Shown in pieces: positions 1 through 3,000 of a DNA stretch of 64,000 bases. This DNA is from a virus (taxonomy: Duplodnaviria; Heunggongvirae; Uroviricota; Caudoviricetes). Made by a program: the position numbers. Where the stretch lies: IMG/VR virus record IMGVR_UViG_2684623127_000007. The stretch is one strand, 5' to 3'. Numbering within the stretch: the first letter of the stretch is position 1; every line of letters begins with the position of its first letter.

Positions 1-3000
1 CAGTGTCTCGCGCAAGCTGACGAAGCAGGATTACTGGGAAAACTTCCGGTTGAGATGAAGGTTGCCCAGTGGCGATGGTTGTATGTGACGACATTCATCA
101 ACGAAGAAGAAGACAAGAACGGCACAATTGATGTCCCGAATGAACACGGAACAACAGATCGCGCCGTAATATATAACGGGAAGCATGGGGTTATGACGAT
201 ATATCCCGGCCCCATTCGGTTTGCCTTACAGCAGTATATTGAATGGAATTTAATTCAAAAATACGGCGAGGCAGAAGGAATGGGTAGAGCGCTGTTTCTT
301 TATCAGAAAATGCTCATTACATACCCAGATAAAGGTTTCATTGTTTCAGACATGGGGCGAGAAGGGCTTGAACTCCTTCTGGATGAAATGATTAACGACC
401 TGAATACTCATGGTATGCCAGAAGGCCAGTGACACATTAAATATTAAGAAGAATATAATTCTTCCGTTTTTTACTAACCATTTATATGAAAAACAACCGT
501 GAATTAAGCAGAGTAAAACTGCTTTTAATCCTTGCCACAGTACTGACAATAACAGAAATCATTATTCTCTTTATTGCGCTGTCTGTCAGTTAAAAATATC
601 GGGATACCACATACCAATGAGACTGTATTTCACAATAGTAATTTTACTGGCAATTATCGCATGCATTTACGGATTACTCGTTCCGTTCCTTATATCCATG
701 AAGGATACGATAGCAGTTACTTCTGGCTTTGCACTGGCGTTTCTGACCCCGCCCTGCATTTATGCCATTTACAAGGGTCTTTCTTTCACTAAGGATAAAA
801 AATGAAAAAAATTATTTTTGCTTTAGCCATTGTTCTGCCGACCATTGGCCTTGTCGGCTGCGATCGCGTTGAACCCGGTAATGTTGGCATCAAAGTAAAT
901 AAACTGGGCGACGATAAAGGCGTCGGTGAGGTGGTCGGTGTTGGTCGCTACTGGACTGGCTGGAATACTGAAGTTTACATCTTCCCAACCTTCAAACAAA
1001 TGAAGACCTACGATGAGCCGTTCAGCTTCCAGATGAGTGACGGCACAACCATCGGCTATCACATCGGTGTTGCCTACAAAGTTGATCCATCCAAAGTTAC
1101 CACGGTGTTTCAGACCTACCGCAAAGGCGTGGATGACATTACCGCCACTGACCTGCGCCAGAAGATCGCCGACGCACTCAATCGACTGGCCAGCAAAATG
1201 ACCACCGACAAATTTATCGACGGCGGCAAGTCTGAACTACTGGATGCCGCACTTAAAGACATTCAGGAAGAGATGACCCCCATCGGCGTTCAGGTAATGA
1301 GCCTCTCTTATGTAGGTAAACCGGAATACCCGCCAACCGTTATCGACAGCATTAACGCCAAAGTCACGGCAAACCAGAAAACCCTGCAGCGCGAACAGGA
1401 AGTCAAGCAACGTGAAGCGGAGGCCAACATGCTGCGTGCAGAAGCTGCCGGACAGGCTGATGCCATTCGAACAAAAGCCCTGGCAGAAGCCGATGCCATT
1501 CGTTTACGCGGCGAAGCTCTGCGCCAGAACCCTGGCGTCATGGAGCTGGAAGCCATCAACAAGTGGAACGGTACACTGCCGCAATACATGACCAGTGGTG
1601 CCAATACACCATTTATCCAGATTAAATAACTTACACGCCCGGCAAACCGCCGGGTTAATGGAAAATCAGATGAACAACCAGAATACTCAACCGCAAATAA
1701 TGAACTATGACCCGAATCTGACGTCGTGCGGACGCATGGCAAAACAAACCGTTCGATTAACTTTCGGACTATGGGAATACCGCGAAACATTCGAAGTTAC
1801 TGTCGGCGGCAATCTGACCGGACTGGATGTTATCAATTGCGCTATTGAAAGCCTGTACGCAACGCTGCCTTATGAAGAAGTCCTGGATGAGCGCACAGGG
1901 AAAACGGATATCATGGCCACCATTAATATTGGCGAACTGATATGCCAGGATGAAGACCTGTCCGGGGAACTCTGGCTTGCCGGGATGCTTATCTCAGCAG
2001 AAATTATCAGCATTGAACCCGCTACAAACATACGGCTCTGAAGTTCTCACTATTCAGAGAGCAGGAGAAAAAATGTTCGCTCTGATTAATCAGGGACAAC
2101 TGTATACCGACAGTGCCGGTTACCCGGTAAAAATTGTTCGCTGCATAAACAACACCGTGTTGTACAGAAGATGTGAAGCGAATGTTTGAAGTGTGGTGCC
2201 ACTGCCGTGGATGAAAGTTTTATGAGGTTGGCATGCAGACAATCATCTATCAGATAACCCCCAGCAAATGGTGTACGGAGAGAGTCCTCATTGCATCAAC
2301 AGGGCTAAAGCCTGGCACCATCGAGCGAGCCAGAAGAAAGTCATGGATGCAGGGAAAAGAATACCGCCATTACGCTGTAGAAGGTGATCCGGGGCATTAC
2401 AGTGAATGCCTGTACAACATCGAAGAAATTATGCGATGGATCGAAAACCAGAAACAACCAGGTGCCAAAAATGCAAGTTCCGGTTAACCTGTTAATGCTC
2501 CTGGACGTCTGGGAGGTTTTATGAGTAACGCATCATACCCGACAGGCGTTGAAAACCATGGAGGATCACTCCGTATATGGTTTCACTATAATGGCAAACG
2601 TGTCAGAGAAAACCTCGGTGTTCCTGACACCGCCAAAAACCGGAAGATCGCTGGTGAGCTTCGCACTTCTGTTTGTTTTGCAATCAGAATGGGGAGTTTC
2701 GACTACGCCGCGCAGTTCCCTAATTCCCCTAACCTGAAACACTTTGGTCTGGGAAAAAGAGAGATAACCGTTAAGGCACTTTCGGAAAAATGGTTGGACC
2801 TTAAGAAAATTGAGATAGGAAGTAATGCATTCAGTCGGTATCAATCCGTGGTGAGAAACATGCTTCCTCGCATAGGGGAAAAACGTCTTGCTTCGTCGGT
2901 AACAAAGGAAGATTTACTGTTTATCAGGAAAGATTTATTGACCGGGTATCATAATCTTTCTAACGGAAAAACAACGCCGATTAAAGGGAGGTCAGTAGTT

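What the first reader, a model, noticed from the sequence alone, without database searches (positions are those of the whole stretch)
617..2189. SPFH/band-7 lipoprotein operon with a coupled small membrane protein in the early region next to xis/int
Upstream of and co-oriented with xis and int are a 62-aa membrane protein whose stop overlaps the start of an SPFH lipoprotein, then a 127-aa and a 38-aa ORF of unknown function. In a lambda-like layout this is the pL-operon accessory region. A prophage-borne SPFH pair is not a standard phage function and could be a membrane-associated exclusion or stress module.
Basis: inference. Interest (0 to 1): 0.5.

Follow-up and report, generated by a model that had tools for sequence, protein, structure and literature searches.

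The report
Phage SPFH lipoprotein with hairpin partner
The small membrane protein plus SPFH lipoprotein next to xis/int is real, but it is a common two-gene phage module (the coliphage N4 gp19-gp20 pair) found in both lytic and temperate phages, and its function is still untested.

Summary
Window 617-805 encodes a 62-aa two-helix membrane protein. Its stop overlaps (ATGA) the start of a 275-aa SPFH/Band-7 lipoprotein at 802-1629. Both lie in the leftward early operon of a phiP27-like Stx2a prophage of E. coli O157:H7, upstream of DUF5406, a truncated DUF4222, xis and int.

The claim that this is not a standard phage function fails. The SPFH protein matches 717 phage records, many of them virulent. 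It is 63% identical to coliphage N4 gp20, and the 62-aa protein is homologous to N4 gp19.

The pair is a conserved unit:
- It is together in 78 of 79 close viral loci whose flanks vary.
- A hairpin ORF is present in 73 of 80 diverse viral contigs.
- Some relatives carry hairpin and SPFH in one open reading frame.

The AlphaFold model matches cage-forming SPFH proteins (HflK/C, prohibitin, stomatin) over its full length. No known defence model matches. Distant relatives sit in ordinary chromosomal contexts in Sphingomonas, Pedobacter and Leptospira.

My best reading is an early-expressed scaffold on the periplasmic face of the inner membrane. Exclusion, membrane protection and FtsH modulation remain untested alternatives. 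The gene family is already annotated. The conserved hairpin partner seems undescribed in the library I searched. Interest is moderate to low.

The parts
617..805 (+). 62-aa inner-membrane helical hairpin protein (N4 gp19 family, PHROG 1130). Helices at about residues 3-26 and 33-54, with a short turn carrying the invariant Pro23 and Ser27, and a basic C-tail.
   Evidence: ORF and hydropathy. PHROG 1130, E = 7e-23. An HMM built from the hairpin domains of natural fusion proteins hits it at E = 1.4e-15. Alignment A4 shows invariant P23 and S27. N4 gp19 matches at E = 2e-6.
792..795 (+). AGGA Shine-Dalgarno for the SPFH gene, inside the 3' end of the hairpin gene. Together with the ATGA stop/start overlap at 802-805 it indicates translational coupling.
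   Evidence: Read directly from the sequence.
802..1629 (+). 275-aa SPFH/Band-7 lipoprotein (N4 gp20 and phiP27 L05 family, PHROG 200). Signal peptide 1-19, lipidated Cys20 with Asp at +2, SPFH domain about 20-175, long helix 178-242, helix 244-254, and a C-terminal tail with the invariant KW-x-G-x-LP motif.
   Evidence: Pfam PF01145, E = 1.2e-30. PHROG 200, E = 1e-112. AF2 model with pLDDT 89. Foldseek matches to HflK/C, prohibitin, erlin and stomatin at E = 1e-14 to 1e-11. 63% identity to N4 gp20. pN/pS 0.04.
1637..1655 (+). G+C-rich stem-loop just after the SPFH stop (7 bp stem, 5-nt loop) with no U-tract. It marks the 3' edge of the mobile two-gene cassette.
   Evidence: Fold dG = -14.1 kcal/mol, z = -2.65. 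It was not called a terminator. DNA matches in other E. coli genomes break at 1654-1657 and at 613.
486..593 (+). Context only: an unannotated 35-aa single-helix ORF upstream. It is intact in phiP27 and in 22 alleles, but coding status is uncertain. Not part of the conserved module.
   Evidence: pN/pS 0.73. Absent from many loci that keep the pair.
1658..2041 (+). Context only: DUF5406 gene (RefSeq start 1670). It is a variable neighbour, not part of the conserved module.
   Evidence: Pfam PF17400, E = 2.3e-22. Absent in 17 of the 79 close loci that carry the SPFH gene.
2073..2189 (+). Context only: truncated DUF4222 gene (38 of about 80 codons), a pseudogene.
   Evidence: Pfam PF13973 covers profile positions 2-31 of 53. 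phiP27 L03 is full length. RefSeq flags it as a pseudogene.
2233..3807 (+). Context only: excisionase (2233-2487) and tyrosine integrase (2521-3807). The prophage ends at about 3872.
   Evidence: Pfam hits. Most E. coli matches stop at 3872.

Best explanation
This is a conserved two-gene phage accessory cassette, the homologue of coliphage N4 gp19-gp20.

Shown by sequence and models:
- A 62-aa helical hairpin is predicted to sit in the inner membrane with both ends in the cytoplasm.
- Its tight, conserved Pro...Ser turn then lies at the periplasmic surface.
- The translationally coupled partner is predicted to be exported, lipid-anchored at Cys20, and held flat on the membrane, because the SPFH domain starts two residues after the lipid anchor.

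Inferred mechanism:
- Like HflK/C, prohibitin, stomatin and flotillin, the SPFH subunits probably assemble through their long helix and C-terminal tail into a ring or cage.
- This cage would sit on the periplasmic face of the inner membrane, with the hairpin as its membrane-embedded partner, fencing off a patch of membrane.

Inferred timing and role:
- Here the pair is probably transcribed from the repressor-controlled leftward early operon. In virulent phages it sits among early or middle DNA-metabolism genes. So it most likely acts during lytic growth or after induction, not as a lysogen-specific defence system.
- The most likely benefit is protection or insulation of the infected cell's inner membrane. 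That could mean blocking entry by a second phage, or preventing premature permeabilisation.
For: Anatomy:
- ATGA overlap, internal Shine-Dalgarno and lipobox.
- Band_7 domain.
- AF2 model with pLDDT 89: an alpha/beta domain followed by a 65-residue helix.
- Full-length Foldseek matches to every cage-forming SPFH family, E = 5e-14 to 2e-8.

The pair is a unit:
- It is together in 78 of 79 close IMG/VR loci whose flanks vary.
- DNA mosaic breakpoints fall at 613 and 1654-1657.
- A hairpin ORF is present in 73 of 80 diverse viral contigs. In 71 it is a separate ORF upstream, in most of them abutting the SPFH start.
- At least 13 of 117 full-length representatives carry hairpin, lipobox and SPFH in one open reading frame.
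- An HMM built from those fused hairpins finds the window ORF at E = 1.4e-15. It also finds the free-standing ORFs of phiP27, KpS8, Moo19, CKB-S1, a P1-like plasmid and Pa222.
- N4 gp20 is 63% identical to the SPFH protein, and gp19 is homologous to the hairpin and overlaps gp20.

Inner-membrane, periplasmic placement:
- The single-ORF and TM-anchored relatives necessarily sit in the cytoplasmic membrane.
- Asp at +2 in the window protein is the classical E. coli Lol-avoidance signal (established knowledge).

Early or lytic role:
- 717 phage records match, many of them virulent.
- Neighbours in 80 viral contigs are mostly DNA and nucleotide metabolism genes, with no conserved third gene.
- In P1-like phage-plasmids the pair lies between tRNA genes and ban. 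In phage P1 that stretch is annotated as downstream of the C1-controlled ban promoter.
- Here there is no own promoter, and no terminator between the CI-proximal promoter-like site and the pair.
- Strong purifying selection acts on the SPFH gene, pN/pS 0.04.
Against: - No experiment bears on function, and I found no functional study. A 2026 paper states that the reason the gene is in phage genomes 'remains unclear' (PMC13239085).
- Oligomerisation, hairpin-SPFH contact and membrane localisation are inferred, not shown.
- The +2 residue after the lipidated Cys is not conserved (S, T, D, G, E), so some relatives could go to the outer membrane.
- A prophage SPFH protein of Pasteurella was found in outer-membrane vesicles (PMC9872710). 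Its membership of this family was not verified.
- Expression timing rests on consensus promoter and terminator scans and on gene position only.
- The pair could be read through from the repressor promoter in lysogens.
- Distant relatives sit in ordinary chromosomal contexts. The family's basic activity is therefore not phage-specific, and 'protection' is only one of several possible pay-offs.
Confidence: 0.45

Rival explanations
1. Prophage-expressed exclusion or defence module. The pair would be made in the lysogen and protect it from other phages at the membrane, as T5 Llp, phi80 Cor, TP-J34 Ltp or T4 Imm/Sp do.
For: - It is a lipoprotein plus a small inner-membrane protein, the classical make-up of superinfection-exclusion factors (established knowledge).
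- It behaves as a mobile cassette in variable accessory positions of prophages and phage-plasmids.
- In Moo19 it lies next to a gene annotated as superinfection exclusion.
- Early expression in virulent phages also fits exclusion, as with T4 imm/sp and T5 llp.
Against: - No PADLOC model matches.
- No own promoter was detected.
- Exclusion proteins are usually narrow and fast-evolving. This family is under strong purifying selection.
- The family spans phages of Gram-negative and Gram-positive bacteria and haloarchaeal viruses, and also cellular genomes.
- Nothing shows expression in the lysogen.
Confidence: 0.2
2. HflK/C mimic aimed at FtsH. The periplasmic SPFH cage would capture or displace host FtsH. 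That would change turnover of phage proteins (CII-, CIII- or Xis-like) or host proteins (LpxC, sigma-32), and so tune the lysis-lysogeny choice or host physiology.
For: - The best sequence matches among solved structures and NCBIfam models are HflK and HflC.
- HflK/C is the top Foldseek hit.
- The inferred periplasmic orientation matches HflK/C.
- The pair sits in the same operon as xis and int.
- Other authors have made the same suggestion for other phages (PMC10269572, PMC4936722).
Against: - The matches are weak: E = 1e-3, and 22.8 bits against a cutoff of 134.
- Foldseek does not prefer HflK/C over prohibitin, erlin or stomatin.
- There is one SPFH gene, not a K/C pair.
- It has a lipid anchor instead of a transmembrane helix.
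- Virulent phages with no lysogeny decision carry it.
Confidence: 0.15
3. Lysis-timing device. The hairpin has the size and topology of a class II holin or pinholin, and the SPFH cage would sequester it, or the phage's own holin, to delay lysis.
For: - The hairpin has two helices, predicted N-in/C-in topology and a basic C-tail.
- In Staphylococcus Kayvirus the SPFH gene lies directly after holin-endolysin.
- N4 is known for very delayed lysis (from memory).
Against: - The hairpin matches no Pfam family.
- The prophage has its own class II holin in the lysis cassette.
- Neighbours in 80 viral contigs are DNA-metabolism genes, not lysis genes.
- Cellular relatives in Pedobacter and Leptospira keep a hairpin-like ORF.
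- The Kayvirus partner has a different architecture.
Confidence: 0.1
4. Lysogenic-conversion surface or virulence factor. The lipoprotein would be released in vesicles and act on the animal host through TLR2.
For: A prophage-encoded HflK/C-like SPFH protein of Pasteurella multocida was found in outer-membrane vesicles, activates TLR1/2 and contributes to virulence in mice (PMC9872710). The host here is an EHEC strain whose prophages carry many virulence genes.
Against: - Homology of the Pasteurella protein to this family was not verified.
- The family is widespread in virulent and environmental phages.
- Asp at +2 predicts inner-membrane retention.
Confidence: 0.05

Closest known systems
Coliphage N4 gp19 (membrane protein) and gp20 (lipoprotein), with phiP27 L05 and PHROG 1130 / PHROG 200
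   Same: Direct homologues. gp20 is 63% identical over the full length. gp19 is a homologous hairpin that overlaps the gp20 start by 8 nt. phiP27 L05 is 97.8% identical, and the 62-aa ORF is present there but unannotated.
   Different: N4 is virulent, and there the pair sits upstream of DNA-metabolism genes (ATPase, endonucleases, dCTP deaminase) rather than next to xis/int. None of these genes has an experimentally defined function in the library searched.
HflK/HflC-FtsH complex of E. coli
   Same: SPFH fold followed by a long helix, inferred periplasmic orientation on the inner membrane, and the best (though weak) sequence and fold matches.
   Different: There is a single SPFH gene rather than a K/C pair. 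It has a lipid anchor rather than an N-terminal transmembrane helix. Scores are far below the equivalog cutoffs. No link to FtsH has been shown.
SPFH-NfeD operons (QmcA-YbbJ, YqiK-YqiJ, archaeal stomatin-NfeD)
   Same: An SPFH scaffold encoded next to, and co-translated with, a small membrane partner. In this family the two parts can also lie in one reading frame.
   Different: The partner is a 62-aa bare hairpin with no NfeD/OB-fold domain and no Pfam hit. From memory, QmcA faces the cytoplasm, whereas this protein is exported.
Phage superinfection-exclusion pairs and lipoproteins (T4 Imm/Sp, T5 Llp, phi80 Cor, TP-J34 Ltp)
   Same: Early-expressed small inner-membrane protein and/or periplasmic lipoprotein encoded among early genes. 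This is a functional analogy only.
   Different: No sequence or fold relationship. Those proteins are lineage-restricted, whereas this family is broad and strongly conserved.

Membership tests
SPFH / Band 7 superfamily | Band_7 (PF01145) domain scoring above the Pfam gathering threshold | tested here: met
   107.3 bits against a cutoff of 23.6, residues 22-208.
SPFH / Band 7 superfamily | Alpha/beta SPFH fold followed by a long coiled-coil helix and a C-terminal cap segment | tested here: met
   AF2 model, pLDDT 89.1: strands and helices over 20-175, then a helix over 178-242. Full-length Foldseek hits to HflK/C, prohibitin, erlin, stomatin, flotillin and QmcA.
SPFH / Band 7 superfamily | Assembly into a large membrane-attached ring or cage | not testable with these tools
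   Only monomer models could be made.
HflK/HflC FtsH modulators | Score above the NCBIfam equivalog cutoffs for HflK or HflC | tested here: not met
   HflC scores 22.8 bits against a cutoff of 134.4, and HflK 19.6 against 159.4.
HflK/HflC FtsH modulators | Two paralogous SPFH subunits encoded together, each with an N-terminal transmembrane anchor | tested here: not met
   There is one SPFH gene. It has a lipobox instead of a transmembrane anchor, and the upstream gene is a 62-aa hairpin.
HflK/HflC FtsH modulators | Physical association with FtsH | not testable with these tools
   Needs pull-down or cryo-EM.
SPFH-NfeD operon | Partner protein carries an NfeD / OB-fold domain | tested here: not met
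   The 62-aa partner has no Pfam hit at E <= 0.01 and is too short for a soluble domain.
SPFH-NfeD operon | Membrane partner gene adjacent to and co-transcribed with the SPFH gene | tested here: met
   ATGA overlap here. A partner ORF is present in 73 of 80 diverse viral contigs.
Bacterial lipoprotein | Signal peptide ending in a lipobox [LVI][ASTVI][GAS]C | tested here: met
   MKKIIFALAIVLPTIGLVGC, read from the sequence. At least 72 of 117 relatives have a lipobox. Lipidation itself was not tested.
Phage N4 gp19/gp20 module (PHROG 1130 + PHROG 200) | Both proteins match the family profiles, are adjacent, and are in the same order | tested here: met
   PHROG 1130 E = 7e-23 and PHROG 200 E = 1e-112. 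BLASTP to N4 gp20 E = 1e-129 and to gp19 E = 2e-6.
Known anti-phage defence systems (PADLOC-DB v2) | Any component matches a defence-system model | tested here: not met
   No hits at E <= 0.1 for any of the six proteins in 55-2189.
Moron (autonomous prophage cassette) | Own promoter and own terminator flanking the cassette | tested here: inconclusive
   No sigma-70-like site lies upstream on the + strand. There is a 3' stem-loop of -14.1 kcal/mol but no U-tract. Recombination breakpoints do flank the cassette.

The most novel reading that the evidence does not exclude
The hairpin plus SPFH lipoprotein would be a distinct type of SPFH membrane-cage system with its own mini-partner in place of NfeD. 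Phages of many lineages would have captured it from cells and use it early in infection to enclose a specific host inner-membrane client. That client might be FtsH, a DNA-entry route or a pore-forming abortive-infection effector. The module would then be a general phage counter-measure that keeps the infected cell's membrane intact.
Probability: 0.15. Interest if true: 0.7.

Novelty: new variant of a known kind. Interest (0 to 1): 0.38.

Why it matters
SPFH cages such as HflK/C, prohibitin, stomatin and flotillin have recently been solved by cryo-EM, but what they enclose is often unclear. A phage-borne version with a 62-aa partner occurs in about 1.4% of sequenced phage genomes. It is also present in roughly a tenth of complete E. 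coli genomes, on prophages or phage-plasmids that include Stx2a-converting prophages of EHEC. That gives a compact and genetically tractable system, in N4 or in a phiP27-like lysogen, for asking what such a cage does. If it protects the infected membrane or excludes other phages, it would bear on phage competition, phage therapy cocktails and Stx-phage biology. If not, it is simply a common accessory gene that is already annotated.

Tried and rejected
1. Phage P1 upl-plp. I recalled this pair as the same module, and that was wrong. P1 plp is a 125-aa protein on the opposite strand. In P1-like phage-plasmids (RCS47, pRM10386-1) the hairpin-SPFH pair replaces plp-upl-tciABC at that locus.
2. Defence-system models (PADLOC): no hits.
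3. Housekeeping paralogue or host backbone: rejected. The flanks are prophage, only 535 of 5426 genomes carry it, and the HflK/C scores are tiny.
4. NfeD identity for the partner: rejected, because it has no domain and only 62 aa.
5. Own promoter or terminator: none convincing.
6. A conserved third gene. DUF5406, DUF4222 and the 35-aa ORF are variable neighbours. Neighbours in 80 diverse contigs share no family.
7. Literature. Seven full-text searches found only annotation-level mentions and speculation, and no functional study of the phage family.
8. The AF2 model of a natural single-ORF fusion gave a confident hairpin, but coordinates cannot be inspected here. Hairpin-SPFH contacts therefore could not be assessed.
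9. The first related-loci run on the 94-sequence alignment failed for lack of a conserved stretch. The first viral scan returned only near-identical loci. A second scan with distant queries was needed.
10. Pasteurella PM0222: its sequence could not be fetched, so its membership of this family is unverified.
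Full report
**Where the window comes from**

- The first 4200 bases are 100% identical to E. coli O157:H7 strain PV15-279.
- Annotation of that record shows the region is the int-proximal end of an Stx2a-converting prophage.
- Left of the window lie a CI-like repressor, a divergent Cro-like gene, Rha and ash genes, a helicase, Q, stx2a, the lysis genes and terminase.
- Most other E. coli matches stop at window position 3872, which marks the prophage end.
- The closest named phage is phiP27, whose L05 protein is 97.8% identical.

**Checking the observation**

- The ORFs are as described.
- The 62-aa ORF (617-805) has two strongly hydrophobic helices and a basic C-terminus.
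- Its TGA overlaps the ATG of the 275-aa ORF (802-1629) in an ATGA, with an AGGA six bases upstream.
- The 275-aa protein starts with a lipoprotein signal peptide (lipobox LVGC, Asp at +2).
- It carries a Band_7 domain at 107 bits.
- The '127-aa ORF' is a DUF5406 protein.
- The '38-aa ORF' is the remnant of a DUF4222 gene that is full length in phiP27.
- xis and int follow on the same strand.
The only correction is that the 38-aa ORF is a pseudogene fragment.

**How widespread the module is**

The two proteins fall in PHROG 1130 ('membrane protein') and PHROG 200 ('lipoprotein').

A tblastn of the SPFH protein against 50,697 phage records finds 717 records, 644 of them over at least 80% of its length. 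The matches include:
- N4-like Schitoviridae
- Vequintavirinae (KpS8, 4MG, Mydo)
- Staphylococcus Kayvirus (phage 812, 'MbpS')
- phiCbK-like Caulobacter phages
- Pseudomonas Bruynoghevirus
- crAss-like and Lak phages
- Halorubrum viruses

Coliphage N4 itself encodes the pair. gp20 is 63% identical (E = 1e-129). gp19 is a homologous hairpin whose end overlaps gp20 by 8 nt.

In E. coli, 535 of 5426 complete genomes carry DNA similar to 486-1657, at 418 chromosomal and 199 plasmid places. The plasmid copies are on P1-like and SSU5/pMT1-like phage-plasmids.

So this is not an unusual prophage cargo gene. It is a common phage family, present in many strictly lytic phages.

**Evidence that the pair is a functional unit**

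1. Close relatives. In 80 close IMG/VR loci the 62-aa ORF accompanies the SPFH gene in 78 of 79. Meanwhile the upstream gene, the 35-aa ORF, DUF5406, xis and int come and go.
2. Breakpoints. DNA similarity in other E. coli genomes begins at window 613 and ends at 1654-1657. That is exactly the two genes plus a 3' stem-loop.
3. Conserved arrangement. A small hairpin ORF with the same motif lies just upstream of, or overlapping, the SPFH gene in several phages:
   - phiP27
   - KpS8
   - Moo19
   - Vibrio phage CKB-S1
   - a P1-like plasmid

   The shared motif is G-x-x-[VL]-P-x-[LM]-[IV]-S-x-x-[DS]-[TS]-I-[AS]-V.
4. Single-ORF forms. Among the 150 best representatives from a 1.8-billion-protein library, at least 13 of 117 full-length relatives carry hairpin, linker, lipobox and SPFH in one open reading frame.
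5. Homology test. An HMM built only from those fused hairpin segments retrieves window 617-805 at E = 1.4e-15 among 1105 ORFs. It also retrieves the free-standing ORFs of the other phages, including Pa222_014. Pro23 and Ser27 are invariant.
6. Diverse relatives. In 80 diverse metagenomic viral contigs (42-65% identical to a fusion-type query), 73 have a hairpin-family ORF. In 71 it is a separate ORF upstream, in most of them abutting the SPFH start, and in 2 it is fused in frame.

More distant phages keep a coupled membrane ORF of a different shape. Examples are Caulobacter Magneto gp179 and Kayvirus gp72.

**Structure**

- The AlphaFold2 model of the SPFH protein (94-sequence alignment) has pLDDT 89.
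- It shows a signal helix, an alpha/beta SPFH domain starting right after Cys20, one helix spanning 178-242, a short helix, and a flexible tail.
- The tail carries the family's invariant Trp (KWxGxLP).
- Foldseek aligns it over its full length to HflK/C, prohibitin, erlin, stomatin, flotillin, QmcA and vault protein.
- These hits run from E = 5e-14 to about 1e-6, at 14-18% identity, with no clear preference for one subfamily.
- By sequence, HflK is the only solved relative, and only weakly, at E = 1e-3.
- The HflK/HflC equivalog models score far below their cutoffs.
- A natural one-ORF relative models confidently (pLDDT 89.7) as a tight helical hairpin, a third helix carrying the lipobox, and then the SPFH domain.
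- TM-anchored and single-ORF relatives must sit in the cytoplasmic membrane with the SPFH domain outside.
- Asp at +2 in the window protein is the classical inner-membrane retention signal in E. coli. However, the +2 residue is not conserved across the family.

**Expression context**

- No sigma-70-like site precedes the pair on its strand.
- No terminator-like site lies between a promoter-like site just downstream of the CI-like gene and the pair.
- The stem-loop after the SPFH stop (-14.1 kcal/mol, z = -2.65) lacks a U-tract.
- In P1-like phage-plasmids the pair lies between tRNA genes and ban. In phage P1 that stretch is annotated as downstream of the C1-controlled ban promoter, and it holds plp-upl-tciABC instead.
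- In 80 diverse viral contigs the upstream neighbours are mostly DNA and nucleotide-metabolism genes. They include thymidylate synthase, ribonucleotide reductase, helicases, exonucleases, NinB, RecE-like proteins, endonuclease VII and HNH. No third gene is conserved.
- Together this points to early or middle expression during lytic development.

**Beyond phages**

- A scan of one genome per species found relatives at 30-36% identity in ordinary chromosomal neighbourhoods:
  - Sphingomonas, next to ApbE and a hydrolase.
  - Pedobacter, next to AccA, a pyrophosphatase and a peptidase.
  - Leptospira, next to succinate dehydrogenase.
- Some of these loci have a weak hairpin-like ORF upstream.
- A Pseudomonas locus is prophage-like.
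- The subfamily therefore has cellular members, and phages appear to have acquired and spread it.

**Function**

- No PADLOC defence model matches.
- Full-text searches found only annotation-level mentions and speculation:
  - An HflC-like role in lysogeny (PMC10269572, PMC4936722).
  - A role in adsorption or entry (PMC13239085, which says the reason for its presence in phages 'remains unclear').
- One experimental paper concerns a Pasteurella prophage SPFH protein found in vesicles and acting through TLR1/2 (PMC9872710). Its membership of this family I could not verify.

*Best reading (confidence about 0.45).* I commit to an early-expressed membrane scaffold. The lipid-anchored SPFH subunits would form an HflK/C-like ring or cage on the periplasmic face of the inner membrane. 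The hairpin would be the membrane-embedded partner. The cage would insulate a membrane patch, most plausibly to protect the infected cell's membrane or to exclude a second phage.

*Shown:*
- Gene coupling.
- Conservation of the pair.
- The fold.
- Predicted export and lipobox.
- The phage distribution.

*Inferred:*
- Oligomerisation.
- Hairpin contact.
- Localisation.
- Timing.
- Biological pay-off.

*Rivals:*
- A lysogen-expressed exclusion module (0.2).
- An FtsH-directed HflK/C mimic (0.15).
- A lysis-timing device (0.1).
- A conversion or virulence lipoprotein (0.05).

**Verdict**

- The operon context and the accessory status are right, and a membrane role is plausible.
- 'Not a standard phage function' is wrong, and a prophage-specific defence role is not favoured.
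- The genes are already annotated (RefSeq, PHROGs, phiP27 since its first annotation, N4).
- What appears new is the recognition of a conserved non-NfeD hairpin partner, its occurrence in one reading frame with SPFH, and its cellular relatives.
- I rate it a new variant of a known kind (SPFH plus small-partner operons), with moderate to low interest.

Noticed in passing
window 486-593 (+): An unannotated 35-aa ORF encodes a single hydrophobic helix in the AT-rich gap upstream of the pair. It is intact in phiP27 and in all 22 alleles seen, but pN/pS is 0.73, so coding status is unclear. It is absent from many loci that keep the pair.
   Followed up: partly
window 2073-2189 (+): The '38-aa ORF' is a truncated DUF4222 gene. 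phiP27 L03 and E. coli razor3 have the full gene of about 80 aa. A deletion has therefore removed its 3' part just upstream of xis.
   Followed up: yes
window about 3872 onward, 4675-5325 (-) and through about 64000: The Stx2a prophage ends at about 3872 and abuts a second lambdoid prophage. That prophage carries T3SS effector genes (NleG/DUF1076, EspM1, NleH1-2 fragment, NleA), IS3/IS630/IS66 remnants and a broken integrase. The NleG cluster and tail-fibre genes of a third prophage follow. The arrangement is a tandem prophage array. Only 6 other listed genomes share the junction at 3873-4200.
   Followed up: partly
L009 2731-2967 (pRM10386-1) versus L090 14473-15930 (phage P1): In P1-like phage-plasmids the hairpin-SPFH pair occupies the slot between trnT and trnI. 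Classical P1 has plp-upl-tciABC there, so this is a swappable accessory locus in the stretch upstream of ban. The 78-aa hairpin ORF is not annotated in the RefSeq plasmid record.
   Followed up: partly
P0124, P0129, P0134 and other one-ORF relatives: In the one-ORF relatives the lipobox Cys lies after a third hydrophobic helix, downstream of the hairpin. If Lgt and LspA process it, one precursor would be cut into a free hairpin and a lipoprotein. Some of these may instead be gene-calling run-ons with an internal start.
   Followed up: no
L116, L136, L113 (Sphingomonas, Pedobacter, Leptospira chromosomes): Relatives at 30-36% identity lie among housekeeping genes and recur in many species of these genera. 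This suggests a cellular SPFH subfamily (C-terminal KWxGxLP motif) from which the phage genes derive.
   Followed up: partly
L008 181-2753 (Staphylococcus phage 812): In Kayvirus the SPFH gene and its 102-aa single-helix partner lie immediately downstream of holin and endolysin. This is the only lineage seen with a link to lysis genes.
   Followed up: no
window 802-1629 compared with 617-805 across IMG/VR loci: Synonymous divergence among alleles is much higher in the SPFH gene (pS 0.21) than in the adjacent hairpin gene (pS 0.03) for loci aligned without gaps. This hints at recombination within the cassette or at uneven sampling.
   Followed up: no
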